DNA of 64,000 bases from Planctomycetota bacterium. GTDB lineage: Bacteria; Planctomycetota; PLA2; JAEUHO01. The stretch is from the NCBI GenBank assembly GCA_050248855.1, contig JBFWRP010000005.1, positions 8,389 to 72,388 on the forward strand, given 5' to 3'. Position numbers and translations under genes: made by a program. The notes under the pieces are model-generated. The model worked only from the letters and a program-made list of their open reading frames with translations, was not told the origin of the DNA and did not search any database. The stretch's first letter is position 1. The number at the start of each line of letters is the position of its first letter. Positions 4,829-54,570 of the stretch are shown here, piece by piece.

Positions 4829-4917
4829 TCCGGCGTCGGGACGCGCCGGGGTACGTGCAGCGGACCTGGATCGCCTGCGGCGGGGGTCGTCCGTTGCGCG
4901 AACGGGACCGTACCGAG

Positions 4918-4998
4918 CCAGGTGAGATTCCCGCTTCACGCTGCGGCGCAACCAACCATGGGGAGATCAACCGGGGCGTGAAGCTGGAATCTCACCCG
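4918..4998. repeat. Large imperfect palindrome (22-bp arms ccaggtgagattcccgcttcacgc / gcgtgaagctggaatctcacccgg, about 33-nt loop) between convergent genes
   Basis: Seen directly. Shares the gtgagattcc/ggaatctcac arm motif with the palindrome at 39262-39360. Confidence 0.75.
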
Positions 4999-5032
4999 GC
5001 TCGTCCCCTGGGGTGCGGAGATGTCTCCGTGC

Positions 5033-5057
5033 GGGACCGAGCATCTGGCGAGCCGCC
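5033..5057. repeat. Copy of interspersed core motif gggaccgagcatctggcgagccgcc
   Basis: Identical 25-mer at 13289-13313. Reverse-complement copy (ggctcgccagatgctcggcc) at 46806-46825. Diverged copy at 18494-18512. Confidence 0.8.
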
Positions 5058-5084
5058 CCCCCGACGGCACAGCCACCGCCCGAA

Positions 5085-5510
5085 TCAGATAGGCAGGCTG
5101 CCGGGGCCGAGCTCGAGGATGGGCCCCCGCGGCCCCAACTGGATCGTGTGGACTCGCTCGAGGACGTCGTCGAGCACGATGCGGTCGGTGGCGTCCCCGT
5201 CGACGAGCATGCCGTTGCCGCCCAGGTTCTCGATCTCGACGCGATCGGACGCGTGGAGCGTGATCCGTACGTGCCGACGGCTGACGGAGGCATAGAGCAA
5301 CGAGCGCTGCACGTCGCGGCGCGCCGCGCCGCGCGATTTGAGGTACGCCGGGGAGCGCTTGAGCGACCAGTCGCACCAGCGGCTGCGCCCGACGACCACG
5401 CTCTGGCCCTCCGCGATGCGCAGGGTCTGGCCCTCGGCCAGCTCGCCCGTGCCGCGCAGCAGGACGTAGCAGGACGAGACGGGGGCCGACGGGGTCTCCA
5501 GCGGGTTCAT
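5085..5510 (-). CDS. FHA-domain protein (phosphothreonine-binding)
   Basis: 141 aa. FHA signature GRSRWCDWSL...VSRRHVRITLH...VEIENLGGNGMLVDG. Lies 45 nt downstream of the kinase gene on the same strand. Confidence 0.8.
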   Translation of the reverse strand: MNPLETPSAPVSSCYVLLRGTGELAEGQTLRIAEGQSVVVGRSRWCDWSLKRSPAYLKSRGAARRDVQRSLLYASVSRRHVRITLHASDRVEIENLGGNGMLVDGDATDRIVLDDVLERVHTIQLGPRGPILELGPGSLPI

Positions 5511-9538: not shown

Positions 9539-11334
9539 CGGTCCAGCCCCCGCGGCGACGCGTCGTCCTGCCGGACCGCCGGACGACGCCCGCGCTCCTC
9601 GAGCAAGTCGAGCCGCCGGAAGTAGGGGTACGCCTCGAGGTAGCGAAGCAGGTAGCGCTCGCCCTGGTACTTCGTCTTGTCCTCGCCCAACGCGCTGGGC
9701 AGGTTGTTGAGGCCGAACAGCGACCTCGTCATCTCGTCCAACCGCATCGCCACGAGGTCGCGCACGTCGCCGACCAAGAGCCCGTTCGGGTCGTCGACGA
9801 GGTCCTCCAGGGCTTGCAGGGTGGAGCTCGCCGCGAGCGGGAACGTGGGGCTGCGCAGCGCGGCGCCGTACTGGTCCACGAGGCGCCCGAGGGCCTCTTG
9901 GAACGGTCCCTTGGCGAGGATGCCCGCGGCGGCGCGCTCGAGACCCTTGACGGCCACCTCGCGCGTCTCGGCGTCGTCGAACCGTCCCTGGGCCAGGCCC
10001 CGGAGGAGGGCGACCGCCGCGAACGGACGCGGATCCTCCTGATCGCCCGGGATCGGGCGCTTGGACTTCTGCGAGAGCCAGTCGGCGCAGGCCTTCACCC
10101 CTTCCGCCGCACCGGCTTGGCCGGCACGGAAGAGCAGGAACGGGAGGACGCCGGGGCGCAGCTGGCGAGGTGGGTTGACCGCGCAGTCGACGCACTTGGC
10201 GTCGAGCCATACGCGCGGGACGTCGAGGAACAAAAGGGCCTGGACCGCCGCGCGGGCCACGGCGGCTTCGGTGTCGGTGGGCCGGAGCAGGCGCGGCCAC
10301 AGGCCTTCGGCGAGCTGCGCCTCCTGGCCGCGCGCGCGGGCGACGAGCGCACGGGCGAACAAGGCCTCGGCCGCCTCCGCCGGCTGGCCGAGGGCCTCGA
10401 CCGCCTCGAGCGCCGCGCTTAGATCGCCCAGGCGCTCCCCGAGCTCGGCAGGCCGGTCCCTGGCCAGCGCCGCGGCAAGGCCCAACGCCGCGGCAGCGCG
10501 CACGGCGCTCTGCGTCTCGCTCGACAGGAAGCGCAGGTACGTCGCGGCATCGCCGGAGCCGACGAGCCCGCGGGCGAGGAGCGCGGCTTGGCGCGGCGGC
10601 ACGGGCCCGAAGCCGTCGGGGTCGATGGCCTCGACGACTTCCCGGGCCTGCGGCCCGCCAATACGCCCCCAGGCGAGCAAGGCTGCGCAGGCCTCCGGGG
10701 CCGACGCACCCCGCGCAAGGAGGGCGAGGCGATCCCGCCCGACCTGCAGCAGCCGCTCCGCATCGCGGCGGATGCCCGCCGGCACGGCCAGGCTGGCCTC
10801 GACGACGACGAGGTCGGGGGGCGTCACCTCGTTCCAGGGGAACGCCCCGAGCGCCAGGGCGCAGAAGGCGCCGGTCCACTCTTCGTGCCCACCCCCCAGG
10901 CGATCGACCAAGGGGCCGACAACGGAGCGCTGCAGCTCGAGGGCGGGGCCGTACGCGTCACGCAGGGCGGCGACCGTGAGGGCGGCGTTCCACCACGTGG
11001 TGCGGCTGCTGCTCTGGCTGCCCAGCACCTCCCCGAGGATCGGCGCACTCACCAGGCCGAAGCGGCGCACGAGGCGTGCCCGCGCGGGGACGACGCGGTT
11101 CAGGTCCGCGAACGAGCTGTCGATCTCGTGCCGGATGTCCGTGTCCGTCTGCGGGTCCAGGATCCCGGGGTCGTGGAACGGCAGGGCCGGCGGGACGGGC
11201 TGGAGGTCGCGGGGGCCCCCCGCGTCGGCACGACCCACCGTGCACGTCAGCGCCAGGAGCAAAGCCAGCGTCAAGCTCCGGCCGCCGCGGCGTGCGAGCT
11301 CCCTATCGCGCATGCTGGTACCCGCCTTGGACAT
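9535..11334 (-). CDS. Secreted alpha-helical (HEAT/ARM-like) protein, operon partner of the kinase
   Basis: Signal peptide LTLALLLALTCTVGRADA. Ala/Leu-rich helical repeats. Stop overlaps the kinase start (ATGA). Start is either 11334 or the internal ATG at 11313. Confidence 0.65.
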   Translation of the reverse strand: MSKAGTSMRDRELARRGGRSLTLALLLALTCTVGRADAGGPRDLQPVPPALPFHDPGILDPQTDTDIRHEIDSSFADLNRVVPARARLVRRFGLVSAPILGEVLGSQSSSRTTWWNAALTVAALRDAYGPALELQRSVVGPLVDRLGGGHEEWTGAFCALALGAFPWNEVTPPDLVVVEASLAVPAGIRRDAERLLQVGRDRLALLARGASAPEACAALLAWGRIGGPQAREVVEAIDPDGFGPVPPRQAALLARGLVGSGDAATYLRFLSSETQSAVRAAAALGLAAALARDRPAELGERLGDLSAALEAVEALGQPAEAAEALFARALVARARGQEAQLAEGLWPRLLRPTDTEAAVARAAVQALLFLDVPRVWLDAKCVDCAVNPPRQLRPGVLPFLLFRAGQAGAAEGVKACADWLSQKSKRPIPGDQEDPRPFAAVALLRGLAQGRFDDAETREVAVKGLERAAAGILAKGPFQEALGRLVDQYGAALRSPTFPLAASSTLQALEDLVDDPNGLLVGDVRDLVAMRLDEMTRSLFGLNNLPSALGEDKTKYQGERYLLRYLEAYPYFRRLDLLEERGRRPAVRQDDASPRGLDR

Positions 11335-12961
11335 ACGCCCGCCAGCGCTCGTCGAGCCCCCGGTAGTCCACGCCGAACGCGGCCTTCAACGCCTTCTCTT
11401 CGTCGGGCTCGTCGCCCTTGGTCAAGTCGATGAACTGCTTGAACTTGGCGGCGTCCCAGCGGATCAGGCACTCGACGACGCTCCAGCTCTTGACCAGCTC
11501 GACGTAGCGGAACTGGCTGAGCTCCATGCGCGCCAGGCGCTTGAGCGGCGGGTCCGTGCCCGCCAGTACCTCGGCCTTGAGGGCCTCGCGCCATCGCGCG
11601 CTGTCCTGCCAGATGGGGACGTCGGTGTCCTCGCCGGTGGCTTGGCTGCCGGCGCCGCGGCCGAGCGTGAACGTGAGGCTGTAGCCGATCGCATCCATCT
11701 CGAGCACGTAGGCGAAGCCCTCCTGGAGCCACGCCGACGGGAAGCGGTAGTCGCGCTTGTAGATGGTCAGCAAGAGCTTGCCGACCTGGTGGACGGTGTT
11801 GCTGACGAAGGTCTTGTCGGTGTTGGGGAACTGGTAGCAGCCGATGGCGTTCAGGTCCTGCACCCACCACCAGGCGTGCTGGCGCTGCACCGCCCCCACC
11901 CAGCCCTTGACGAGCTCGTCCGCCTTGACGTGGCCCGCGAACCACGTGGCGAAGCGGGTGTAGGACGGCAGCTTGACGTGGAGGACCACGCGCGTGCGCT
12001 GCGTCACGTCGTCTTCGGGCAGGTCGTCGCCCGTGGGCTTCAGGTACCCACGCGCCGCGGCGTAGGCCTTCTCGCACCCATCCGCGATGGTCCCGAGCAG
12101 GGGCTCCTGCACGTCCCCCATGAGGTCGAACCACGGCGCCCAGCGGTAGACGAGCGGCAGCCGCGAGCCCTTGGAGGCGAGGTCGACGAAGGCCTTGCCC
12201 TCGGCTTCGCCGAAGCGAACCCAGGCCCCGTCCACCTGGCGCTCGCCGCGGCGCCGGCGCCACTCTTCCTCGGTGACCCAGTCGTTGCCGTCCTTGCGCA
12301 GGCCCTTCTCGCGGGCCTCCTTCTCGGCGGGGGTGATCCACTCCCCCTCGTAGGGCACCAGGCCACGGGCCCGGAGCTCGGCCTCGCGCGCGGCCGCCTC
12401 GCGGCGTGCCTGCTCCTCGGGGCTCATCCACTCGCCGTCGACCTTGACGTGGCCGAGCGCCTCGCGCGCCTTGCGATGCTGGGGGTCGGCCGCGACGACC
12501 TGCTGCAGGATCGCGGGGAGCTCGCTCTCGAAGCCGGCCTTCTTGGCCCACTGCCATACCGCCCACAGGGCCTTGGCGTCGCCCTCGGCCTGCTGGGTGC
12601 GGAAGGCCAGCTGCTCGCGCAGCGGGGGCTTGCGCGTGTCGACCGACTTGACGTCCGCTCTCGGCACCGTGCGCGTGCCGTCGAAGGTGGTCTCGATGAC
12701 GACCTTCTCGTCGTCCTCCACGAGCACCTTTCCCTCGTAGGTGGTCCCGTCCCGCGTGACGACGACGTCGGCCCGCGCCGCTTCCGCGAGCGGCCCGGCG
12801 ACGAGGGCGCCGCCCAGCAGGACGGCACCGAGCAGGACGGCACCGGACAGGACGGCGAGCGCCAGGGCGCCGGGCCCCGCGCCCCCGATGCCCGGGCGGG
12901 TCGGGGCGACGCCGGACGCAGCGCCTCGCGCGAGCGCGGGAGCGTTCCGTAGCATCCTCAC
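11303..12961 (-). CDS. Secreted or membrane-anchored hypothetical protein, first gene of the kinase operon
   Basis: N-terminal hydrophobic segment ALALAVLSGAVLLGAVLLGGALVAG. W/K/E-rich globular composition. 32-nt overlap with the next gene. No family could be assigned from sequence. Confidence 0.6.
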   Translation of the reverse strand: MRMLRNAPALARGAASGVAPTRPGIGGAGPGALALAVLSGAVLLGAVLLGGALVAGPLAEAARADVVVTRDGTTYEGKVLVEDDEKVVIETTFDGTRTVPRADVKSVDTRKPPLREQLAFRTQQAEGDAKALWAVWQWAKKAGFESELPAILQQVVAADPQHRKAREALGHVKVDGEWMSPEEQARREAAAREAELRARGLVPYEGEWITPAEKEAREKGLRKDGNDWVTEEEWRRRRGERQVDGAWVRFGEAEGKAFVDLASKGSRLPLVYRWAPWFDLMGDVQEPLLGTIADGCEKAYAAARGYLKPTGDDLPEDDVTQRTRVVLHVKLPSYTRFATWFAGHVKADELVKGWVGAVQRQHAWWWVQDLNAIGCYQFPNTDKTFVSNTVHQVGKLLLTIYKRDYRFPSAWLQEGFAYVLEMDAIGYSLTFTLGRGAGSQATGEDTDVPIWQDSARWREALKAEVLAGTDPPLKRLARMELSQFRYVELVKSWSVVECLIRWDAAKFKQFIDLTKGDEPDEEKALKAAFGVDYRGLDERWRAYVQGGYQHAR

Positions 12962-13288
12962 GATCCTACCTGCGGCTCCGCCTCGGGACGTTCCGGACGT
13001 CGGTGACCCTTCGCAGCAGGAGGGCCGCCAGTCAGGTGCACGCCTACACCGCTGGGTACCCGCTCACCTACCCCGAAAACAAGCCGCCAGGCGCGCATAG
13101 ACGCCGCTCGGAGCGGAGCGCCACCTCCACGAACCGGGTCGCCAGGGCGACGGTAGCGCGCCCGCATCGGCGACGACTCGTGGTCTGGTCCCCCGTTGGC
13201 GTTCCGCGCTCACGCGCGGATTCGGTGCTCCGGCTTCGCCTGCGCAGCAGGGGTGCTGGTTCCGCACCACCCCTGCACCCCTCACGGT

Positions 13289-13313
13289 GGGACCGAGCAT
13301 CTGGCGAGCCGCC
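13289..13313. repeat. Copy of core motif gggaccgagcatctggcgagccgcc
   Basis: Identical to 5033-5057. Confidence 0.8.
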
Positions 13314-13420
13314 CGTCCGCACTCCAGGGGCTGAACACTGCAATGGAAGGTGCCTGAACTCCGGGCTCGGACAGGACAGCCACGCTTCCATGGGAGGGGG
13401 TGCCGCGCGCATCGAGACGC

Positions 13421-13520
13421 GGTACGGAGGCGGGGATTTCTTCCGCAACTTGCCGCCCTGCGCTTCGGCATGCGGAAGTGCCCATCGGCAAGTTGCGGAA
13501 GAATTCCCCGCCTCCGTACG
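13421..13520. repeat. Giant palindromic element (35-bp arms, 30-nt loop)
   Basis: Left arm ggtacggaggcggggatttcttccgcaacttgccg. Right arm cggcaagttgcggaagaattccccgcctccgtacg. Its loop contains catgcggaag, the reverse complement of cttccgcatg in the loop of the 39262-39360 element. Confidence 0.8.
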
Positions 13521-13544
13521 GGCTTTGCCGTCGGCATGAAGAAC

Positions 13545-15230
13545 TTACACCGCTGGGTCGCGGCGCAGGGCCCGAAGCCCCTCGAAGAGGACGAGCGCCT
13601 CGAGCGCGAGGAACAGGGCGCCGAACGTGACGACGACGGCGTTGCCCCGCTCGGTCTCGGCCACGAGGCCCTGGATGCCCGCCCAGGTCGTCATGGCCAG
13701 CAGGAACAGCAGGGGCACCAGGATGACGATGCGCGGCCGCCCCGCGCGCCGCAGGACGACGTAGAGGACGAGCAGCGTGAGGGCCCCGATCAGCTGGTTC
13801 GTCGTGCCGAAGACCGGCCACAGGATGAACCCGCCGCTGCCGATGCCCTTGCCCCCGTCGGTGAGCAGCGCCAGGAGGGCCGCAGGCACGACCGCCACGG
13901 TCGTCGCCACGTAGCGGTTGCGCAGGGACGTCACGCCGAAGGCATCGCCGAGCTCGGTCAGGCAGAAGCGCTGGATGCGGGCCGCGGTGTCCAAGGTGGT
14001 GGCGGCGAACGAGATGACGATGACGGCGATCACCGTCTGCGCGAGCTGGGTGTCGCCGGCGAGCAGCGGCTCGAGGAAGCGACTGGCCCCCGCCACGAAG
14101 TGCGTGATGCCGGTGTTGCCCACCTGCTGCCAGTCGCCGTACTGGGCGCGCCACTCTGCGGCGCTCCCCAGCCCCGCGGTCGTGGCGAGCACCGCCAGCA
14201 TGGCCAAGACGCCCTCGCCGAGCATGCCGCCGTAGCCGATGGTGCGCGCATCGCGCATGCGGTCCAGCTGCTTGGCGGTGGTCCCACTGGCAACCAGACC
14301 GTGGAAGCCGCTGATGGCTCCGCACGCGATCGTGATGAACAACATCGGCAGGAGCCCCGGCGTTCCGGGGGGGACGTCGTGGTTGATCGCCGGTGCCGTC
14401 ACCTCCAGGCCCGGCGAAAGGGCAAGGCCCAGCAGGAGGCCCCCGAGGCCCAGGAACAGCTGGTGCGAGTTGATGTAGTCGCGCGGCTGGAGAAGCACGC
14501 GCACCGGGAGCACGCTGGCAACCCAGGCGTAGGCCAGCAGGAACACCACCCACGTGGCGATCGGCGAGCCCGCCAGCTCGAGCGCCGGTGGGAGCACGCC
14601 GGCCTCGGGGTGCCGCGCGAACACCACGACCAGCGCGTAGAGCACGGCCAGGGCGAGCAGCGAGGGCACGAGCAGCCGCCCGCCGCGGCCGTAGACCCAC
14701 CAGCCCAAGACGAGCGCCACGACGATCTCGAGGTTGATGGGCCAGACGCTGGCCGGCACGTTCGTGAACAGCACGGCGATCAGGTACGCGAAGACCGCCA
14801 GCACGATCCACGTGAGCAACACGATGATGCCTAGGAACCCGACGCGGGCGCGCGGCGAGAGGATGGTGCCCGCCAGGTCGCCGATGGTGCGGCCGCCGCG
14901 CTGCGCCGAGAGGGCCAACGCGCCGAAGTCGTGGACGGCGCCGATGAAGATGGTGCCGAGCACGACCCACAGCAGGGCGGGCAGCCAGCCCCAGATCACC
15001 GCGATGGCCGGGCCCACGATGGGCGCGGCGCCGGCCACCGAACAGAAGTGGTGCCCGAACAGGACGTGCTTCCCGCAAGGGACGCAGTCGACACCATCGG
15101 GCGCGGTGTGGGCGGGCGTCGGCTGCGCGTCGTCGAGGGCAAACACCTTCCGCTCGAGCCAGCGGGCGTAGGTACGGTGCGCGACGACGAAGGCCGCAAG
15201 GGCCCCCGCGGCAAGCAGGGCGGCGTTCAT
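13545..15230 (-). CDS. cstA: Carbon starvation protein A (CstA family peptide/pyruvate transporter)
   Basis: 561-aa polytopic membrane protein with the characteristic CstA N-terminus (CVPCGKHVLFGHHFCSVAGAAPIVGPAIAVIWGWLPA). Confidence 0.85.
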   Translation of the reverse strand: MNAALLAAGALAAFVVAHRTYARWLERKVFALDDAQPTPAHTAPDGVDCVPCGKHVLFGHHFCSVAGAAPIVGPAIAVIWGWLPALLWVVLGTIFIGAVHDFGALALSAQRGGRTIGDLAGTILSPRARVGFLGIIVLLTWIVLAVFAYLIAVLFTNVPASVWPINLEIVVALVLGWWVYGRGGRLLVPSLLALAVLYALVVVFARHPEAGVLPPALELAGSPIATWVVFLLAYAWVASVLPVRVLLQPRDYINSHQLFLGLGGLLLGLALSPGLEVTAPAINHDVPPGTPGLLPMLFITIACGAISGFHGLVASGTTAKQLDRMRDARTIGYGGMLGEGVLAMLAVLATTAGLGSAAEWRAQYGDWQQVGNTGITHFVAGASRFLEPLLAGDTQLAQTVIAVIVISFAATTLDTAARIQRFCLTELGDAFGVTSLRNRYVATTVAVVPAALLALLTDGGKGIGSGGFILWPVFGTTNQLIGALTLLVLYVVLRRAGRPRIVILVPLLFLLAMTTWAGIQGLVAETERGNAVVVTFGALFLALEALVLFEGLRALRRDPAV

Positions 15231-18467: not shown

Positions 18468-18480
18468 TGGTTGCTTGGCG

Positions 18481-18650
18481 TGCGGCTAGGCGGCTCGCCG
18501 AGTGCTCGGCGGCGCCGGCGCGATCCGCTCCTCGAGTGAACAGACCACGAGTCGTCGCGGATCGCTTGGCGGCGCCTTCGCCCTGACGAGCCGAGGTGCG
18601 ACGGCCGCGACTCGAACCCAGGCGTGCTTGCTTCTGGGTGGCTTGCGCAC
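18481..18650. repeat. Interspersed structured repeat element (paralogue of 46769-46956)
   Basis: Shares ctcctcgagtgaacagaccacgagtcgtcgc (30/30) and gccctgacga with the copy after ftsK. Here the shared core is flanked by an internal inverted repeat gcgatccgc...gcggatcgc. Sits between convergent genes. Confidence 0.8.
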
Positions 18651-26737: not shown

Positions 26738-27757
26738 CTACTTGCCGGGCGCCGGCGCGGTCAGCTCGACCGTGGCCGCCTTGCCCGCCTCCACCGTGAC
26801 GGTGACGGTCTCTTCCCAGTCCGCCCCGTACTCGTAGCTGGAGATCTTGTTGTCCACGACCACGGGCGTCTCTTCCATGCCCTCGTGCCAGACCTTCACC
26901 GTGTACTCGCCGGGCGGCACGCCTTCGAGGACGAACTTGCCCTTGGCGTCGGTCACGGCGAAGTAGGGGTTGGTCACGGCATGGATGTAGGCGTTCATCC
27001 AGGGATGGATGTCGCACTTGACGATGTACTTGCCTGGCTTCGCCAAGTAGGCCTCGGCCACGATCTGCTGCTTGGTCCCCGCGCCGGAGCCGAAGTTGAA
27101 CACGGTGTTGAGCATCGACTCCAGGTAGCCGTGGATGTTGTGGAGCGCGTTGTCGCTGTTGTCCACGGCCAGCTGCGTCTTCTCGCGCGTGACCATGACG
27201 TGCGGGATGTACTGGCAGGACTTCTGGTCGATCGTCGTCAGACGGTCCTTCGGACGCAGCGCTTCGGGCCAGTCCTTGCCCTTCTCGATGCCCTCGATCA
27301 CGACGACGCAGTTCGCCAGCCCAAGCGTCTCGGGATCGAACACGCAGCGCTCCGACGGATGGCTCTCGTGGCCGCACGCCTCGAGATCCTTGTCGACGAC
27401 GATGGTGCCGATGACGGGCTGGCCGGAGAGCTTGATGGTGCCTTCGATGCGGCCGGCGTTGGCGACGGCAGACTCGTCCACCTCATAGCTGTCCTTCTTG
27501 GAACCGCTGCGACTCCCGCGGCCGCGCGCGGGCGCCGCCACCTGCGGCTCGCTCTTCGGCGCGGGCGCGGGACGGGTGAGGTTGGCCGCGGCGACCTCCA
27601 CGACACCGCCGTCGTCCGCGGTGCGCGGGCGCGGCTTCATGGCACCCGTGCGACGCGCGCCTTCCCCCTGGAGATCCACGTCGGGGTGGCCGCAGGCCGG
27701 GACGAGGGCGAGCAGGGCGCCCAGGGCGAGCGAGGGAACGAGCGAGGCGATGCGCAT
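26738..27757 (-). CDS. Lipoprotein with cupredoxin-like (type-1 copper, amicyanin-type C-x2-H-x2-M) domain plus C-terminal beta-sandwich domain
   Basis: Lipobox LVPACG. ALHNIHGY followed about 45 residues later by KCDIHPWM, which is His...Cys-x2-His-x2-Met spacing as in amicyanin. C-terminal GKFVLEGVPPGEYTVKVWHEG. Calling it a cupredoxin is inference. Confidence 0.55.
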   Translation of the reverse strand: MRIASLVPSLALGALLALVPACGHPDVDLQGEGARRTGAMKPRPRTADDGGVVEVAAANLTRPAPAPKSEPQVAAPARGRGSRSGSKKDSYEVDESAVANAGRIEGTIKLSGQPVIGTIVVDKDLEACGHESHPSERCVFDPETLGLANCVVVIEGIEKGKDWPEALRPKDRLTTIDQKSCQYIPHVMVTREKTQLAVDNSDNALHNIHGYLESMLNTVFNFGSGAGTKQQIVAEAYLAKPGKYIVKCDIHPWMNAYIHAVTNPYFAVTDAKGKFVLEGVPPGEYTVKVWHEGMEETPVVVDNKISSYEYGADWEETVTVTVEAGKAATVELTAPAPGK

Positions 27758-27957
27758 GCGGTTCTCCGGGACGTCCGACCGGAGAGCGAGGGAGACCGGC
27801 CGCCGTCGGGCAGGATTCTAGGGGGCGGCGGCCGACACGCCCGGCAGGAACGGAGCGCTGCCCGGCCGCGGCCCGGGGACCTCGTACGCTCGTTCGAATC
27901 CCGACGGAAGCGATCCGGACTCCGGGGGCGACCGGCGCCTCTGCGAGGGCGACGCGA

Positions 27958-28878
27958 TCAGCGCGGCGGGATGGTCCGCTCGACCCGCACCGTCTGGCCG
28001 GACCCGAGGGTGACGGGGATCTCCTCGACCCAGTCCTCGCTGTACTCGTAGGAGCTGATCTTGTTGTCCACGAGGATCGGGACCTCGCCCATGCCCTCGT
28101 GCCAGATCTTCAGCTTGTAGGACCCGGGCGGCACACCCTCCAAGGCGAAGGTCCCCGAGGTGTCCGTGACGGCGAAGTAGGGGTTGGTCACGGCGTGGAT
28201 CGTGCCGTTCATCCACGGGTGGATGTCGCACTTGAGGAGGTACTTGCCGGGCTTCGCGAGATAGGCCTCGGCGATCACGTGCCGCGTGCCTGCGGACCCC
28301 ATCCCGAAGCTGCTGCCGGTTCTCGACATGCGCTCGTGATACGCATGCAGGTTGTGGAGGGCGTTGTCCTGGTTGTCGACGACGATCCAGGTCTTCTCGC
28401 GCAGCACCTGCACGTGCGGCACGAACATGCACTGCCGCATGACCAGCGTGCCCTTGCGGTCCTTGGGCTTCATCGCCTCGGGCCAGTCCTTGCCCTTCGC
28501 AATGCCCTGCAGGGTGATCACGCAGCTGGCCAAGCCCAGCGTCTCGGGGTCGAAGACGCAGCGCTCCGACGGGTGGCTCTCGTGGCCACACGCCTCGACA
28601 TCCTTGTCGATCACGATGCGGCGAAGCTCGGGCTTGCTCTCGAGGCGAAGGACGCCTTCGATGCGCCCCGCGTGCTCGAGCACGGACGCGTCCACGACGT
28701 AGTCGTCCTTCTTGGACCCACCCCGCGAGCCCCGGCCACGCACGGGGGACGGGGCTGGCGCCGACGGTGCCTTCGCGTGTTCGTCCGCGGGAGCGGGTGC
28801 CAGCGCGCCGTCGCCCCCGCCGCCACAACCGACACCGGTCAGGAGGGCGAGGGTGAGAAGCCAGGCGGCGTGGCGCAC
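27958..28878 (-). CDS. Paralogous cupredoxin-like lipoprotein (tandem duplicate of 26738-27757)
   Basis: GTG at 28878 preceded by GGAAGGAGG. Lipobox LLTGVGCG. Same ACGHESHPSERCVFDPETLGLA and KCDIHPWMN motifs. About 60% identity to the neighbour by eye. Confidence 0.55.
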   Translation of the reverse strand: MRHAAWLLTLALLTGVGCGGGGDGALAPAPADEHAKAPSAPAPSPVRGRGSRGGSKKDDYVVDASVLEHAGRIEGVLRLESKPELRRIVIDKDVEACGHESHPSERCVFDPETLGLASCVITLQGIAKGKDWPEAMKPKDRKGTLVMRQCMFVPHVQVLREKTWIVVDNQDNALHNLHAYHERMSRTGSSFGMGSAGTRHVIAEAYLAKPGKYLLKCDIHPWMNGTIHAVTNPYFAVTDTSGTFALEGVPPGSYKLKIWHEGMGEVPILVDNKISSYEYSEDWVEEIPVTLGSGQTVRVERTIPPR

Positions 28879-36762: not shown

Positions 36763-37222
36763 GTATGTCCGCTGGTGCTCGGGAGGCAGGGATGGACCGC
36801 TGGCGACCCCCGGCCTCCCCGCCGGGATCGCGCCGTGAGTCTAGGGATCTGGGCCCCCCCTCCGAAGGTTTGCCGCCCCCGCGACCGTGCGCGCGAGGCC
36901 TCCTCGCAGGGGCTGGTCGGCGAACGTGCGTTCGTCGGGTCGGAGGCGCGCCGGGCGAAACCACAGCGCTCGTGCGATACATGAGAACGGCTCGCAGGAT
37001 GAAGGTGGCTCTCGACCTCTGCTCGGGAGCCACCCTGGGGCGTTCGCAATGTCGCGCGCGCTCGACACGCAGCGCCCCGGTGACGAGTCGTCTGGACGCT
37101 CGATCCGGGCGAGGCCCAGGTTTCCGGGCCTCGACCTCGCGGTCCCCCTCTTGCGTTCGAGGCGGTCGTGGTGGAGGACAGACGCGTCCGGCGGCAACGC
37201 CTGCGCGTCGCGAGGACCCGCC

Positions 37223-39244
37223 ATGCCCATCCTCATCCGCTCCGTTCGCCGCTTGCCCCTCGCCCTCCAAGCCGCCGCCGTGGCGACCCTCCTCACCGCG
37301 TGCGGTGCTCCTACCGACACGCTGCGTCCGGCGACGCTGTCGATGTCGCCGCGCGTCGTGGACGCCAGTGCCAGCGCGCCGTGCGTGATCCGGGGCATGG
37401 ACTTCGGTGACGGGCCCGTCTCGGTGCGCCTCATCGACCATGACGGTCGCATCGTGGGCCCCGTGCGGACCACCGAGCCCAGTGCCGACGGCCACCAGCT
37501 GGCCATGCTGACGGCGATCCTGCCCGAGCTCGAAGACGACACGTGGGTGCGCGTGCAGATCCAGACGGCCGACGGGCGCATCGCCTGCACGGACGAGAAC
37601 GTGCTCGTGAAGGCCGGCGTCGAGGCGCCGCGCCTGATCGATGGCCGCGAGACCAACCCGTCGGACGCCGCCATGGGCTCGACCGGAATCGGTCTGCGAC
37701 GCGATGTGCCGCCGGCCTTCGCCGATGGGGTGGCGACGCTGGCCCGACCCGAGCAGAAGAACCCGCGCACCATCAGCAACACGTTGGTGGCGCAGCCGGC
37801 GGCCCTGCCGCCCGTGACCGGGGCGGTGCCCTCGGACCTGTTCTGGTGCTTCGGCCAGTTCCTCGACCACGACCTGGACCTCTCGCCCGAGAGCGAGAGC
37901 GGCGAGCGCGCCGACGTGGCGATCCCCGCAGGTGACCCGTGGTTCGACCCGTTCGCGACGGGCGCCGTCGTGCTGCCCTTCAAGCGCTCGGCCGCCCTCA
38001 CCGGGAGCGGCGACGGGCCTGGCGACCCGCGCCGGCCCATGAACGCCATCACGGCGTGGATCGACGGCTCGAACGTGTACGGCTCCGACCCGGAACGGGC
38101 CCGCGCGCTGCGCACGCTCGACGGCACGGGGCGCCTGCGGGTCGACGCCGAAGGCTTCCTGCCCCTCAACACGGAGGGCTTTCCCAACGCGCCTACGCCG
38201 CACGACCCCACGCTGTTCCTCGCGGGCGACGTCCGCGCCAACGAACAGGTCGGTCTGACGGCATTGCACACGATCTTCGTCCGCGAGCACAACCTCGTGG
38301 CCGACGAGCTGCGCGCGGCCAACCCGCACCTGTCCGGGGACGAGATCTACGAGGCGGCCCGCCGCTTCGTCGGCGCCGAGCTGCAGGCGATCGCCTACGA
38401 GGAGTTCCTCCCGACGCTGCTCGGCGAGGGCGCGCTGCCGCCGTACGCAGGCCTGCGCACGGACGAAGACGCCTCGATCGGCGTGTTGTTCTCGACGGCC
38501 GCGTTCCGCCTGGGCCACACGATGGTCGGCGGCACGATCCTCCGGCTCACGCGCTACGGGACGCCGCTTGCCGAGGGCCATCTGAGCCTGCGCGACGCGT
38601 TCTTCCAGCCGCAGATCCTGCGTACGGAGGGCGGTGTGGATCCCGTGCTACGCGGCTTGGCGGCCAACCCGGCCCAGGCGATCGACCCGTTCATCGTGGA
38701 CGACTTGCGCAACTTCCTGTTCGGCCCTCCCGGCGCCGGCGGCCTCGATCTCGCAGCCTTGAACATCCAGCGCGGTCGCGACCACGGCCTGCCGTCGTAC
38801 AACGCGTGTCGCGTGGCCTACGGCTTGGCGCCGCGCGCGTCGTTCGACGAGGTGACGAGCAACCCCGAGGTGCGCACGCGTCTCGCGGCCTGCTGGGACA
38901 GCCCCGATGTCGCCGACCCGTGGCCGGTGCTCCTGGCCGAGGACCGTGCTCCGCTCTCGCTCGTGGGCGAGACGCTGACGACGGTGCTCGCCGACCAGTT
39001 CCGCCGCGTGCGTGACGCCGACCGGTGCTGGTACGAACGGATCTACCTCGGCGAGACGTTGGCGCGTCTGAAGGCCACACGGCTCGCGGACGTGATCCGT
39101 CGCACGACGACGATCCGCAACGAGATCTCGAGCACGGCCATGCTGGTGCCCGAAGTCGGGGCCGCTTCCACCAAGGGCGCCGTGCGCGAGAGCACGCGCA
39201 GCGCCGCGGAGCTGGGCAAGGTGGCGCTGGCCTTGGCGAAGTAG
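37223..39244 (+). CDS. Animal-type haem peroxidase (An_peroxidase family) lipoprotein
   Basis: ATG at 37223. Lipobox LLTACG. Distal His motif FGQFLDHDL. Proximal region FRLGHTMV. Ca-binding-like LDGSNVYGS. 673 aa. The antisense 620-aa ORF is rejected. Confidence 0.8.
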   Translation: MPILIRSVRRLPLALQAAAVATLLTACGAPTDTLRPATLSMSPRVVDASASAPCVIRGMDFGDGPVSVRLIDHDGRIVGPVRTTEPSADGHQLAMLTAILPELEDDTWVRVQIQTADGRIACTDENVLVKAGVEAPRLIDGRETNPSDAAMGSTGIGLRRDVPPAFADGVATLARPEQKNPRTISNTLVAQPAALPPVTGAVPSDLFWCFGQFLDHDLDLSPESESGERADVAIPAGDPWFDPFATGAVVLPFKRSAALTGSGDGPGDPRRPMNAITAWIDGSNVYGSDPERARALRTLDGTGRLRVDAEGFLPLNTEGFPNAPTPHDPTLFLAGDVRANEQVGLTALHTIFVREHNLVADELRAANPHLSGDEIYEAARRFVGAELQAIAYEEFLPTLLGEGALPPYAGLRTDEDASIGVLFSTAAFRLGHTMVGGTILRLTRYGTPLAEGHLSLRDAFFQPQILRTEGGVDPVLRGLAANPAQAIDPFIVDDLRNFLFGPPGAGGLDLAALNIQRGRDHGLPSYNACRVAYGLAPRASFDEVTSNPEVRTRLAACWDSPDVADPWPVLLAEDRAPLSLVGETLTTVLADQFRRVRDADRCWYERIYLGETLARLKATRLADVIRRTTTIRNEISSTAMLVPEVGAASTKGAVRESTRSAAELGKVALALAK

Positions 39245-39261: not shown

Positions 39262-39360
39262 CGTACGGAGTCGGGTGAGATTCCAACCTCGGGCCGCCAT
39301 GCCCTTCCGCATGGGTTGGGTCCTTGCGGCCCGAGGTTGGAATCTCACCCGACTCCGTAG
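39262..39360. repeat. Giant near-perfect palindromic element (35-bp arms, 29-nt loop) between convergent genes
   Basis: Left arm cgtacggagtcgggtgagattccaacctcgggccgc. Right arm gcggcccgaggttggaatctcacccgactccgtag. 34/35 pairing. The loop contains cttccgcatg. Confidence 0.85.
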
Positions 39361-44328: not shown

Positions 44329-46770
44329 ATGGCCGCACGATCCACCTCTGCCGCCGCGAGCAAGAGCCGCGCGCGGACCCGTAGTCCTGCCGTCGAGGCG
44401 GAGCCCATCGGCCTCGAGCTGATCGGCTTGGCCCTCGGTCTGGCCTCCTTGCTGTTGTTGGCGGCATTGGCGACCCAGGCTCCCGCGTCCGCGGGCGGGG
44501 GCTGGCGCAACGCCGTCGGAGCGACGGGTCGCGTGGTCGCGCAGGCGCTGACGGGGGCGCTGGGCCTCGGGGCGCTGGCCGCACCGATCTTCGGCCTGAC
44601 CTGGGCGATCGCCTGCCTGCGCGGGCGGCCGCCTGGACGCTGGGCGCTCAAGGCCGCCCTGCTGCCCGTCGCGATGGCCCTCGTGGCCGTGCTGGCGGCC
44701 CTGCTCTTCGAGCGGCTGCACCTGCCGGGCGTCGACCGCTACGGACCCGGGGGCTACTTCGGCCTCGCGCTGGGCACCGCGCTGTATGACGTGATCGGAC
44801 CGTCCTCGAGCCTCGTGCTCGCCGTCGGTCTGCTCGCGGTCGGGGCGTTGCTCGTGGACTTGTCCATCTCCGGCGTCGCGCGGGGCGTCCTGTCCCGCGC
44901 CGGCTCCCCGTCCACCGCGAAGACCTCGCGCAAGGCCAAGCCGCGCCGCGCTCGCGAGGCCGACGAAGTCACGAGCGAAGACGAGACGTGGGACGACGCG
45001 GAGGACGAGGACGAGGAGGGCGACGAGGAGTACGACGAGGACGAGTACGAAGACGACGAGGAGTGGGACGAGGAGGACGAAGACGACGAGGAGGACGAGG
45101 ACGACGAGGCGGAGGCCGAGGACGACGACGATCCCGCGCGTGCGGAGGCGGCGGCCCGGCGGGCCGCGGCCCGCGAGCGCCGCGAGCTGCCTCCGGTCCC
45201 CCGCGACAAGAAGCCCTGGAAGCCCAAGGGCAAGTACGTCCCGCCCCCCATCGAGCTCCTGGCCTGCGGCAAGTCCGTCGAGGAGGCCAACGTCAAGGAG
45301 GAGGTCGAGGCCCGCGCCGACACCCTCGAGGAGACGCTCCGGGCCTTCCGGATCGAGGCCAAGGTGGTCAGCTACCGCCGCGGCCCGGTCATCACGTTCT
45401 ACGAGGTCCAGGTGCCGCCGGGCGTGGCGGGCAGCCAGGTCGCCAAGCGCGCCGACGACATCGGCCGGGCGCTCAAGGTCGGCAAGGTCCGCGTCGTCAC
45501 GAACATGCGCGGCTTGGACACGATCGGCATCGAGGTAGGCAACGAGCAGCGCGACGACGTGACGCTGCGTGACTTGCTCGAGGAGTCGGGGCCCAAGATC
45601 GACCGTCTCGAGATCCCGCTGCTGCTCGGCCGCGACACGTCGGGACGCCCCGTCGTGGAGGATCTGGCCAAGATGCCGCACTGCTTGATCGCAGGCGCCA
45701 CGGGCGCGGGCAAGAGCGTGTGCATCAACTCCGTGCTGCAGTCGATCCTGTTCACGCGCGGGCCCGACGAGGTCAACCTGATCCTCGTGGACCCCAAGCA
45801 GGTCGAGCTGGCCTCCTACGAGGGCATCCCGCACTTGGCCACGGGCGTCGAGACCGACCCCAAGCGGGCCGGCAAGATCCTGCAGTGGGCCGTGGAGCGG
45901 ATGGAGGAGCGCTACCACCAGCTCAAGTGCACGGGCGTGCGCAACGTCAAGGGCTACAACGACCTGCCCGCGGCCCGGCGCGCAGCCTCCCGCGAGCGCC
46001 ACGGGATGGACGAGGAGACGCTGCCCGACCGCCTGCCCTACATCGTGATCGTGGTCGACGAAATGGCCGACCTCATCATGACGGGCGGCAAGGACGTCGA
46101 GCTGGCCATCACCCGCTTGGCGCAGAAGAGCCGCGCGGTCGGCATCCACCTGATCCTGGCCACGCAGCGCCCCGAGCGCACCGTCATCACGGGCCTCATC
46201 AAGGCCAACATGCCGACGCGCATCGCCTTCACCGTGTCGAGCAAGCTCGACAGCCGCGTCGTGCTCGACCAGAACGGCGCCGAGGCCCTGCTCGGCATGG
46301 GCGACATGCTCTTCCTCTCGCCGCGCAGCATGTTCCCGATCCGCGGCCAGGGCGCGCTGGTCACCGACGACGAGGTGCTCGAGGTCGTGCAGGACCTCAA
46401 GAACAAGTACCCGGACGTCGAGTACCAGGACCTGCTCAAGCAGCAGCAACAGACGCAGGGCGATCCCATGGCCCGCGACGAGCTCTACAACGACGCCGTG
46501 CGGCTCGTGCTCTCCAAGAAGCTCGGTAGCGCCAGCATGCTCCAGCGCTGCATGGGCATCGGCTACACACGGGCCTCGCGGCTCATCGAGATGATGGAGG
46601 AGCAGGGCGTGGTGGGCCCCCACCAGGGCAGCAAGGCGCGCGAGCTCTACGTGGACCTGGACGAGTGGGAGGCCGACCTGGCCGCCCGCGGCCCGGCCGA
46701 GAGCCCGGAAGGCCCGACGGCCGAGTACGACCACGACGACCCGCCCGCCGTCGACACCAGCTGGGACTAG
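44329..46770 (+). CDS. ftsK: DNA translocase FtsK
   Basis: N-terminal 4-TM domain. Long acidic linker. Motor with Walker A GATGAGKS and Walker B [8 protein letters not shown]. C-terminal gamma winged helix [31 protein letters not shown]. 813 aa. Confidence 0.9.
   Translation: [813 protein letters not shown]
44995..45135. repeat. Low-complexity GAN/GAG acidic coding tract (D/E run in the FtsK linker)
   Basis: Encodes [46 protein letters not shown]. Confidence 0.7.
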
Positions 46771-46984
46771 AGGTGTCGCTACTGCCCGGCGTGGGGAGGT
46801 GCGGCTCGCCAGATGCTCGGCCGCGCACCACCATCGGCTCCTCGAGTGAACAGACCACGAGTCGTCGCCGATGGTGGCGCGCTGCCGTCGCCCTGACGAC
46901 CCGATCCGCGTCGTAGGCCCAGAAGGCCGGGCCCACGCGGACTCGGCCACGAAGATCCGCCCGCCGTCGACACTAGCTGGGACT
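46741..46984. mobile_element. 188-bp structured repeat element flanked by a 28-bp direct duplication of the ftsK 3-prime end (putative MITE-like insertion)
   Basis: DR1 at 46741-46768 is ccgcccgccgtcgacaccagctgggact. DR2 at 46957-46984 is ccgcccgccgtcgacactagctgggact (27/28). The interior carries the reverse-complement core ggctcgccagatgctcggcc and the 30-mer shared with 18518-18550, flanked by the inverted repeat caccaccatcggc...gccgatggtggcg. Confidence 0.65.
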
Positions 46985-54300: not shown

Positions 54301-54530
54301 GCGGTCCAAAGGACTTTGGACCCGACTAGGCGTCGAACGCCGGGCGACCGCTACCGCATCGATCGTGCAACCCTTTGTGGGCAAGTGACTTGCGAGAATC
54401 CACGGATTTTTGTGCCAAGCGATTGGCCATACTTGGTCACACAAGGTAAGTTCCCGGTGTCGATCCAAAGGACGCGGCATCATCCCCCCCCTGGATGCCA
54501 AAGACCTCGGGTCGGCGAACAACGGGTGAC
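54301..54530 (+). ncRNA. Candidate small RNA or structured leader (low-GC non-coding stretch ending at an intrinsic terminator)
   Basis: About 50% GC island in a 70% GC genome. No credible ORF. Perfect 9-bp hairpin ggtccaaag-gac-ctttggacc at 54303-54323. tccaaaggac occurs again at 54465. Ends in a canonical terminator. No family could be assigned. Confidence 0.35.
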
Positions 54531-54570
54531 GGCCCCCCGGCGAAAGCCGGGGGGCCGGTTTTCGTTTTGG
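54531..54570 (+). terminator. Rho-independent terminator
   Basis: GGCCCCCCGGC-GAAA-GCCGGGGGGCC (11-bp perfect stem, GNRA loop) followed by GGTTTTCGTTTTGG. Confidence 0.8.

What the first reader, a model, noticed from the sequence alone, without database searches (positions are those of the whole stretch)
5033..5057. Interspersed 25-nt core motif gggaccgagcatctggcgagccgcc present in at least four intergenic sites
Identical 25-mers occur at 5033 and 13289. A reverse-complement 20-mer lies at 46806. A diverged copy (ggctcgccgagtgctcggc) lies at about 18494. Every copy sits next to one of the large hairpin elements, within about 30-110 nt of its stem: the palindrome at 4918-4998, the palindrome at 13421-13520, and the 30-mer-bearing hairpins at 46840-46880 and 18518-18560. 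So the core and the hairpin appear to be two modules of one composite element.
Basis: seen in the sequence. Interest (0 to 1): 0.55.

Follow-up and report, generated by a model that had tools for sequence, protein, structure and literature searches.

The report
Dispersed hairpin repeat abutting stop codons
The 25-base motif is the left arm of a roughly 140-base hairpin-forming repeat that has spread to the spot right after the stop codons of unrelated genes in a group of uncultured Planctomycetota; it is a new family of a familiar kind of small repeat (REP/MITE-like), with unusual placement.

Summary
There are two exact 25-mers, one reverse-complement copy with 3 mismatches, and one diverged copy; none is expected by chance.

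The core is not a free-standing module. It is the 5' strand of the basal stem of one long imperfect hairpin of about 105 nt (about 136-150 nt with leader and trailer). Core CGGCTCGCCAG pairs with a 3' tail CTG(G/A)CGACCCG. An inner stem shows compensatory changes.

The window holds two intact copies (A, 46769-46920; B, 18468-18610), one copy with about 100 nt nested in its apex (C, 13118-13328, minus strand) and one leader-plus-core fragment (D, 5029-5084, minus strand). The big palindromes at 4914-5003 and 13422-13519 belong to a separate TA-flanked MITE family that shares the same spacers.

Ten more copies occur in related Planctomycetota contigs. Orthologous sites in close relatives lack the element. 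In 12 loci the core-side end starts at the stop codon of the gene reading into it.

Best reading: a non-autonomous mobile quasi-palindrome that ends up transcribed in 3' UTRs. It has no Rfam match. No transposase was seen in the sequence sampled, and its function is unproven.

The parts
46769..46920 (+). Copy A, intact. The leader starts at the ftsK stop codon. Core 46800-46824, inner stem and apical loop 46822-46880, tail 46884-46903, short trailer.
   Evidence: CM R1 scores 149 bits at 46785-46920. It folds as one hairpin, -69.5 kcal/mol sense and -79.5 antisense. The orthologous ftsK spacers in L150 and L149 lack it.
18468..18610 (+). Copy B, intact, of a diverged subtype (core GGCTCGCCGAGTGCTCGG, inner stem GATCCGC/GCGGATC). 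It starts directly after the parA-like stop codon.
   Evidence: CM R1 scores 118.5 bits at 18474-18610. Its 31-mer apex is identical to copy A. It is absent from the syntenic spacer of the sister species.
13118..13328 (-). Copy C, complete but with about 100 nt of another hairpin repeat (Q module, about 13191-13288) nested in the 5' half of its apex. Core 13289-13313; 3' half and tail 13130-13190.
   Evidence: CM R1 scores 42.8 bits and matches the whole model with an 83-nt insertion. Arms 13135-13145 and 13301-13311 are 91% complementary.
5029..5084 (-). Copy D, a leader-plus-core fragment only (core 5033-5057). It starts directly after the FHA-gene stop codon (5085-5087) and runs into palindrome P1.
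   Evidence: It shares 26 nt of identity with copy C. CM R1 gives only 14 bits. A tail remnant is not significant. Orthologues L165 and L166 keep the same C-terminus but lack the core.
4914..5003 (.). Palindrome P1. It belongs to a separate repeat family, not to the core element.
   Evidence: Its arms are 33 nt and 88% complementary. The same type sits beside a core element in L145.
13422..13519 (.). Palindrome P2. Separate family, GTAC...GTAC-flanked.
   Evidence: Its arms are 49 nt and 86% complementary. The same type lies beside a core element in L131 and, without any core, in the sister species' parA spacer.
39264..39359 (.). Palindrome P3. Same separate family, flanked by TA on both sides, with no core element nearby.
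   Evidence: Its arms are 41 nt and 93% complementary. The sequence and TA flanks are shown.
13000..13559 (-). A 560-nt mosaic block (new stop codon, P2, copy C, 'GGTAGGTGAGCG' module) inserted 14 codons before the native cstA stop. The remnant of the native 3' end lies at 12958-12999.
   Evidence: Alignment with the sister species' cstA ends (571 aa versus 561 aa here) is.
46728..46768 (+). Direct repeat 1: the current 3' end of ftsK.
   Evidence: A 41-nt repeat at 90% identity, 216 nt apart. The score is 29, against a shuffled maximum of 13.
46944..46984 (+). Direct repeat 2: the decayed ancestral 3' end of ftsK. The sequence after it matches the spacers of L149 and L150.

Best explanation
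The 25-mer is the left (5') arm of a lineage-specific, non-coding, hairpin-forming dispersed repeat of about 136-150 nt. It is the same general kind of thing as REP/REPIN, ERIC, Correia and other MITE-like elements.

Shown:
- It is multicopy and dispersed: 4 copies in 64 kb, and 10 more in contigs of related Planctomycetota.
- Its whole length folds into one imperfect hairpin whose arms are kept complementary.
- It is present or absent at orthologous sites of close relatives.
- Copies nest with, or lie beside, other small repeats.
- Its core-side end starts at the stop codon of the gene that reads into it.

Inferred:
- Copies are made by a transposase acting in trans that was not found here.
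- TA-containing stop codons, rare AT-rich sites in a 70% G+C genome, are the preferred entry point. The two diverged copies are cleanly TA/CTAG-flanked.
- The palindrome is kept by the needs of transposition, by quasi-palindrome template switching, or both.
- Because it sits between the stop codon and the terminator, it is transcribed as a very stable 3'-UTR hairpin. That may incidentally affect mRNA 3'-end stability.
For: Repeat status: (0 matches expected by chance). Copies elsewhere: L070 and L099 in MAG HK-STAS-PLAN-1, and 8 of the 35 metagenome hits to the exact 20-mer. The flanking genes are unrelated, and only the repeat is shared.

Hairpin: arms of 37 nt are 76% complementary. RNAalifold predicts 38 pairs, 8 with compensatory changes. 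In the inner stem, 9 of 14 pairs change on both sides; 94.6% of cells pair, against 78% in shuffles and 19-51% when the partner is slid. The diverged copy L115 182-314 has a fully compensated basal stem, GGCGGGACGTCAG/CTGACGCCCCGCC.

Mobility: the ftsK spacers of L150 (84% FtsK identity) and L149 (80%) lack the element. The sister species (98% ParA identity) has no copy in the syntenic 21 kb. FHA orthologues L165 and L166 lack it. A 560-nt block was inserted into the cstA 3' end.

Nesting: the Q module sits in copy C, and there are apical insertions in L121, L136 and L145.

MITE-like ends: L151 reads TA|GAGGTGGTT...AAACCACCTC|TA and L111 reads CTAG...CTAG.

Stop-codon abutment: the distance from the stop to GGCTCGCC is 30 nt in 5 copies. 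The upstream gene's stop lies 7-19 nt before the model start in 11 loci and overlaps it in L111. Homology with empty sites ends at the stop codon.

An assembly breaks inside the core. [quoted passage not shown]
Against: - No transposase or autonomous partner was found. Window genes scanned with Pfam and the annotated loci L147, L149, L151 and L152 show none. A whole genome could not be scanned.
- No clean target-site duplication could be defined for the standard subfamily. Only copy A has a flanking repeat, and that one is 41-75 nt long, unlike any ordinary transposase stagger.
- In classical MITEs the termini are the conserved part. Here the apical loop is the most conserved part (GCTCCTC is invariant in 8 variants), while the arms and termini differ between subfamilies.
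- The 12:1 polarity at stop codons is not expected of a neutral palindromic insertion.
Confidence: 0.6

Rival explanations
1. A selected cis-acting 3'-UTR RNA module. The sense hairpin, placed just after the stop codon, would protect the mRNA 3' end or be processed by RNase III. Its conserved apical loop, with an anti-Shine-Dalgarno-like CUCCUC, would bind a protein or a complementary RNA. Mobility would be secondary, as proposed for REP/BIME and Correia elements.
For: - The core-side end abuts the stop codon of the gene reading into it in 12 loci, against 1 for the tail side.
- In tandem gene contexts the sense strand is the transcribed one in A, C, L070 and L099.
- The asymmetric loop is conserved in genomes whose FtsK proteins are only 65% identical.
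- The stems covary.
- In L070 the element lies between the stop codon and a canonical U-tract terminator, so it would be transcribed.
Against: - The host genes are unrelated housekeeping genes: ftsK, parA-like, cstA and an FHA-domain gene.
- Close relatives do without the element at the same genes.
- L151 carries it in the opposite orientation.
- The apex is replaceable (L070, L145) or interrupted (C, L121, L136), and D is a fragment.
- The antisense strand folds 5-16 kcal/mol better in 9 of 9 copies.
- There is no Rfam match.
- Compensatory changes in quasi-palindromes can arise by template switching without selection (established knowledge).
Confidence: 0.22
2. A REPIN-like element moved as single-stranded DNA by a Y1 (HUH) transposase of the RAYT/IS200-IS605 type. 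The enzyme would recognise the hairpin on one strand and insert 3' of a short GTAG/TAG-like tag.
For: - Structure is conserved more than sequence.
- One strand consistently folds better through G.T-type pairs.
- GTAG(G) recurs next to the 5' leader (L115, L131, L141, L145, L070) and just 3' of the tail (A, L131, L115).
- Rhodopirellula baltica, a planctomycete, has many REP families and tyrosine transposases (PMC3733652).
Against: - No Y1 transposase was seen in any sampled locus.
- The core is not itself a short palindrome, so the element is not a doublet of REPs.
- The GTAG is absent from many copies (B, D, L121, L136).
- The 3' 'TAG' lies inside a conserved trailer context rather than at a clean boundary.
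- Two copies in opposite orientation lie within 200 nt of each other in L115 and L136, which argues against a replication-strand rule.
Confidence: 0.12
3. An independent small-RNA gene, riboswitch, ribozyme or intrinsic terminator.
For: The fold is stable: z = -2.1 for the sense strand and -3.8 for the antisense strand.
Against: - No Rfam family matches, even at E=10.
- There is no sigma-70-like promoter and no U-tract.
- Copies lie downstream of genes, including between convergent genes, so this is not a 5' leader.
- CUGANGA is broken by A-to-G in many copies, so it is not a hammerhead.
- The antisense ATG and Shine-Dalgarno-like sequence are not conserved, so it does not encode a peptide.
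Confidence: 0.04

Closest known systems
REP / BIME / REPIN elements (Enterobacteria, Pseudomonas, Stenotrophomonas 'SMAG'; GTAG-tagged super-family)
   Same: Both are extragenic, G+C-rich, hairpin-forming and multicopy. Both lie mostly downstream of ORFs and between convergent genes, and cluster in mosaics with other small repeats. Their termini can coincide with, or supply, the stop codon (PMC3733652).
   Different: This element is one long hairpin of about 105 nt with a conserved asymmetric loop. It is not a 20-40-nt palindrome or an inverted pair of such units. The GTAG tag is inconsistent, and no RAYT was found. There is no sequence similarity.
ERIC / IRU (127-nt imperfect palindromes of Enterobacteria)
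   Same: Similar size. Both are imperfect palindromes in transcribed spacers, with longer variants made by insertions at internal sites.
   Different: Different phylum and sequence. ERIC is not reported to abut stop codons with a fixed polarity (from my own knowledge; not tested here).
Correia elements (Neisseria) and other TA-targeting MITEs (IS630/Tc1 or IS5 type)
   Same: Both are 100-160-nt non-coding inverted-repeat elements that form RNA hairpins in transcripts. The diverged copies L151 and L111, and the co-resident P palindromes, have TA/CTAG flanks.
   Different: Standard copies show no clean TA duplication or conserved terminal inverted repeat. The apex, not the termini, is the conserved part.
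Integron attC sites
   Same: Both are imperfect hairpins just downstream of, and co-oriented with, an ORF. In both, structure is conserved more than sequence and one strand is favoured.
   Different: There are no R/L boxes (GTTRRRY), no integrase and no cassette array. The host genes are core housekeeping genes.

Membership tests
[quoted passage not shown] | Small (<300 nt), non-coding, multicopy and dispersed | tested here: met
   The element is about 136-150 nt. There are 4 copies in the window and 10 in other contigs, beside unrelated genes. No conserved ORF.
[quoted passage not shown] | Terminal inverted repeats | tested here: inconclusive
   Core and tail form inverted arms (11 nt at 91%, 37 nt at 76%). 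Leader and trailer extend beyond them and differ between subfamilies. Clean terminal repeats occur only in L151 and L111.
[quoted passage not shown] | Target-site duplication of fixed length | tested here: inconclusive
   L151 and L111 have TA/CTAG flanks. Standard copies show no repeat above the shuffled background, apart from the 41-nt repeat at copy A.
[quoted passage not shown] | Presence/absence at orthologous sites | tested here: met
   The ftsK, parA, cstA and FHA sites of relatives lack the element.
[quoted passage not shown] | A parent IS or transposase with matching ends | not testable with these tools
   No transposase domain appears in window genes or annotated loci.
REP / REPIN | Unit is a 20-40-nt palindrome; a REPIN is two such units inverted | tested here: not met
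   The core 25-mer is not self-complementary. The element is a single hairpin with a 28-31-nt asymmetric loop.
REP / REPIN | Conserved GTAG (or CGTC) tag at one end | tested here: inconclusive
   GTAGG lies next to the leader in 5 copies and after the tail in 3. It is absent in B, D, L121 and L136.
REP / REPIN | Cognate RAYT (Y1 transposase) gene flanked by the repeat | not testable with these tools
   None was seen in about 150 kb of related sequence. A whole genome was not available.
Rfam RNA families (all 4227) | Covariance-model score at or above the gathering threshold | tested here: not met
   There are no hits at gathering score. At E<=10 none of the 5 weak hits overlaps a core element.
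Intrinsic (Rho-independent) terminator | G+C-rich hairpin followed by a U-tract | tested here: not met
   There is no T-run after the hairpin on either strand. Canonical terminators exist elsewhere, for example L070 downstream of the element and window 54529-54562.
Integron attC | R''/L''...L'/R' boxes with GTTRRRY, inside a cassette array next to intI | tested here: not met
   The sequence lacks these boxes. The flanking genes are ftsK, parA-like, cstA and an FHA-domain gene.

The most novel reading that the evidence does not exclude
The element may be a mobile '3'-end module' that homes, in a fixed polarity, to the position immediately after a stop codon. Its target choice would be tied to the stop codon itself, or to the ribosome-free single-stranded DNA or R-loop that begins there. 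Its conserved anti-Shine-Dalgarno-like apical loop would give host mRNAs a shared 3'-UTR regulatory handle. The odd 41-75-nt duplication at ftsK would then be the trace of a nick-and-variable-second-cut insertion mechanism not known for bacterial MITEs.
Probability: 0.1. Interest if true: 0.75.

Novelty: new member of a known kind. Interest (0 to 1): 0.36.

Why it matters
It explains several "mysterious" motifs and hairpins of this window with one object and separates them from a second repeat family. It documents a previously undescribed small-repeat family in uncultured, activated-sludge-type Planctomycetota, a phylum where such elements are little studied.

The repeats have practical effects. 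They break short-read assemblies. They remodel gene 3' ends: CstA lost 14 native codons and gained 4, and the ftsK end was duplicated.

If the stop-codon placement and polarity hold genome-wide, the family would be a good system for asking how small repeats choose gene ends. It would also allow a test of whether hosts exploit them as 3'-UTR hairpins.

Tried and rejected
- The genome-collection scan used a degenerate 18-mer and returned mostly chance hits in unrelated G+C-rich genomes. Only the HK-STAS-PLAN-1 loci were real.
- Rfam at gathering and at E<=10 gave nothing at the elements.
- The hammerhead idea (CUGACGA in the tail) was dropped, because many copies read CUGGCGA.
- The antisense small-ORF idea (GAGGAG-N3-ATG) was dropped, because the ATG is absent in B, L111 and L151 and the peptide is not conserved.
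- A generic search for flanking direct repeats was significant only for copy A.
- I proposed TAG...TAG or TGA...TGA 3-nt duplications. They are not convincing, because the 3' triplet lies inside a conserved trailer.
- A tail remnant for copy D beyond palindrome P1 gave p=0.16.
- "Co-orientation with the upstream gene" was first counted as 13 of 13. I then saw that it is automatic in convergent spacers, and replaced it with the question of which end abuts the stop codon (12:1) plus the tandem contexts (4:1).
- A viral-contig scan with the loop 19-mer gave two chance matches inside coding sequence. The plasmid search gave none.
- The consensus scan for promoters and terminators found none.
- A Pfam scan of window genes for a transposase found none.

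Full report
OBSERVATION. The 25-mer GGGACCGAGCATCTGGCGAGCCGCC occurs exactly at 5033-5057 and 13289-13313. It occurs with three mismatches on the other strand at 46800-46824. No match appeared in 100 dinucleotide-preserving shuffles. A diverged copy, ggcggctcgccgagtgctcgg, lies at about 18490. BLAST and a covariance model find no further copies in the window.

ANATOMY. I call the strand that reads GCGGCTCGCCAGATGCTCGG "sense". On that strand all copies align. The parts, in order, are:
- a leader of about 30 nt;
- the core;
- an inner stem (for example CACCACCATCGGC / GCCGATGGTGGCG);
- an asymmetric apical loop of 28-31 nt, CTCCTCGAGTGAACAGACCACGAGTCGTC;
- a tail, GCGCTACCGTCGCCCTG(G/A)CGACCCG;
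- a short trailer.

The core pairs with the tail. CGGCTCGCCAG and CTGGCGACCCG are 91% complementary in copy C. In copy A, 37-nt arms are 76% complementary. RNAalifold on nine standard copies gives a single hairpin of 38 pairs, 8 of them with compensatory changes. Copy A folds at -69.5 kcal/mol.

On eight distinct variants of the inner hairpin, 9 of 14 pairs change on both sides. Of all cells, 94.6% pair, against 78% in shuffles and 19-51% when the 3' partner is slid. A diverged copy in L115 has a fully compensated basal stem, GGCGGGACGTCAG / CTGACGCCCCGCC. So the "core" is the 5' strand of the basal stem, not an independent module.

THE FOUR WINDOW COPIES. Scores are from covariance model R1.
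- A is intact: 149 bits at 46785-46920.
- B is intact: 118.5 bits at 18474-18610.
- C matches the whole model, but with an 83-nt insertion in the 5' half of the apex: 42.8 bits at 13118-13328, minus strand. The inserted sequence is another small hairpin repeat. It also occurs, inverted, in L136.
- D scores only 14 bits. A supposed tail remnant beyond palindrome P1 is not significant (p=0.16). D is therefore a leader-plus-core fragment.

THE LARGE PALINDROMES ARE A DIFFERENT FAMILY. P1 (4914-5003), P2 (13422-13519) and P3 (39264-39359) share the terminus CGGAGnCGGGTGAGATTCC. P3 is flanked by TA on both sides and has no core nearby. In the sister species, a P2-type palindrome occupies the parA/GT9 spacer where this window has copy B. 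P-type palindromes also lie next to core elements in L131 and L145. The two families share insertion hot spots, but they are not one element.

DISTRIBUTION. The window is part of GCA_050181445.1, contig JBFXDE010000010.1. Its proteins' nearest relatives are from Planctomycetota MAGs.

Real copies were found in MAG HK-STAS-PLAN-1 (L070, L099). They were also found in 8 of the 35 metagenome contigs that carry the exact 20-mer: L115, L120, L121, L131, L136, L139, L141 and L145. The other 27 hits are isolated matches that model R1 does not recognise; they appear to lie in coding sequence. In every real copy the hairpin follows the core.

Between loci, only the repeat is similar and the flanks are not. 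A short-read contig ends inside the core.

Two more distant relatives are L151 and L111. They keep the apical loop (GTG[AG]ACAGACCACGCCTGCGG, with GCTCCTC invariant). They have different arms and clean TA/CTAG flanks.

MOBILITY.
- ftsK: the orthologous spacers in L150 (84% FtsK identity) and L149 (80%) have no element.
- Sister species (98% ParA identity): the syntenic 21 kb contains no copy.
- cstA: in the sister species it is 571 aa and is followed almost at once by the next gene. In the window, a 560-nt mosaic block (13000-13559) sits 14 codons before the native stop. The block supplies four new codons and TAA, and the native 3' end survives at 12958-12999.
- FHA gene: orthologues L165 and L166 keep the C-terminus ...LPI* but have no core after it.
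- Copy A alone is bracketed by a 41-nt duplication of the ftsK 3' end, which may extend to about 75 nt. The downstream copy, together with what follows it, matches the ancestral spacer. I cannot explain this duplication with an ordinary transposase stagger.

PLACEMENT. In 11 loci a real upstream gene (GC3 of 0.88 or more) ends 7-19 nt before the model start, and in L111 its stop overlaps the start. The distance from the stop codon to GGCTCGCC is exactly 30 nt in five copies. For ftsK, parA and the FHA gene, homology with the empty sites stops at the stop codon. The leader therefore belongs to the insertion.

Leaders fall into three types: TAGGTAGG, TGATTCGG and TAGAGGTG.

"Co-orientation with the upstream gene" is automatic in convergent spacers. 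The informative count is which end faces the stop codon of the gene reading into the element. That gives core side 12, tail side 1 (L151), a two-sided binomial p of about 0.003. In tandem gene contexts the sense strand is the transcribed one in A, C, L070 and L099, and not in L151.

REP termini that supply TAG stop codons are already described (PMC3733652). So this placement is unusual in its regularity, not in kind.

WHAT IT IS NOT.
- No Rfam family matches, even at E=10.
- There is no promoter-like site and no U-tract terminator. Canonical terminators exist in the clade; in L070 one lies just downstream of the element, so the element lies inside the 3' UTR.
- It is not a hammerhead, and it does not encode a peptide.
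- There are no phage or plasmid relatives.
- No transposase gene was found in the window or in the annotated related loci.

UNRESOLVED.
- The antisense strand folds 5-16 kcal/mol better in all nine standard copies, because A.C mismatches on the sense strand become G.U pairs. This fits an antisense RNA or a single-stranded-DNA intermediate better than a sense 3'-UTR hairpin. It rests on only a few positions.
- Compensatory changes in a quasi-palindrome can arise by template switching without selection (established knowledge). The covariation therefore does not prove an RNA function.
- The conserved part is the apex, not the termini. That is the reverse of a classical MITE.

VERDICT. The object is a new, lineage-specific member of the small hairpin-repeat class (REP/ERIC/MITE-like), nested among other repeats at gene ends. 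Its regular start at stop codons, its polarity and its conserved anti-SD-like loop are the features worth a genome-wide follow-up. Mobilisation mechanism and function remain inferred.

Noticed in passing
window 4914-5003, 13422-13519, 39264-39359; L152 about 11080-11180: A second repeat family: palindromes of about 96-100 nt with terminus CGGAGnCGGGTGAGATTCC. P3 is flanked by TA and P2 by GTAC, which suggests a TA-targeting (IS630/Tc1-like) MITE. In the sister species one of them occupies the parA/GT9 spacer, where this window has core element B.
   Followed up: partly
window 46728-46768 and 46944-46984: A 41-nt duplication of the ftsK 3' end (90% identity, possibly extending to about 75 nt) brackets element A. 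The downstream copy is the decayed ancestral gene end (TGA changed to TGG). This is too long for a normal target-site duplication.
   Followed up: partly
window 12958-13559: cstA was remodelled. A 560-nt mosaic of repeats was inserted 14 codons before the native stop and supplies a new ending, DPAV*. CstA is 561 aa here and 571 aa in the sister species. The old 3' end is still recognisable at 12958-12999.
   Followed up: yes
window about 13191-13288; L136 1580-1669: A third small hairpin repeat (accgtgaggggtgcagggg...cccctgc...gagcaccgaatccgcgcg) is nested inside the apex of element C. It appears in the opposite orientation inside another copy in L136.
   Followed up: partly
window 13056-13075; L139, L120, L145: The motif GGTAGGTGA(A/G)CGnnTAC recurs next to elements, downstream in C and L139 and upstream in L120 and L145. 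In L145 the element seems to have been inserted into it with a 7-nt GTGAGCG repeat. Tandem GTAG runs (TAGGTAGGTAGG in L115) could be excision footprints.
   Followed up: no
standard copies (alignment A2): The antisense strand of the element folds 5-16 kcal/mol more stably than the sense strand in 9 of 9 copies, because conserved A.C mismatches become G.U pairs.
   Followed up: partly
L163 (Logan contig), its last 25 nt: A short-read contig of the same strain ends inside the core motif. This is the expected behaviour of assemblers at a multicopy repeat.
   Followed up: yes
window 26749-28751: Two stretches of about 300 nt repeat in a 1214-nt register at about 75% identity. They look like tandem paralogous genes.
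   Followed up: no
window 44962-45152: A GAC/GAG-rich repeat with 9-nt periodicity (a run of Asp/Glu) lies inside the ftsK reading frame.
   Followed up: no
window 36887-39244: A 785-aa protein with a full-length animal haem peroxidase domain (PF03098, E=2e-134). This is uncommon in bacteria.
   Followed up: no
window 54529-54562: A canonical G+C-rich hairpin with flanking A/T runs, picked up as a weak 'BSnc120' hit. It looks like an ordinary intrinsic terminator, so this genome does use U-tract terminators.
   Followed up: no
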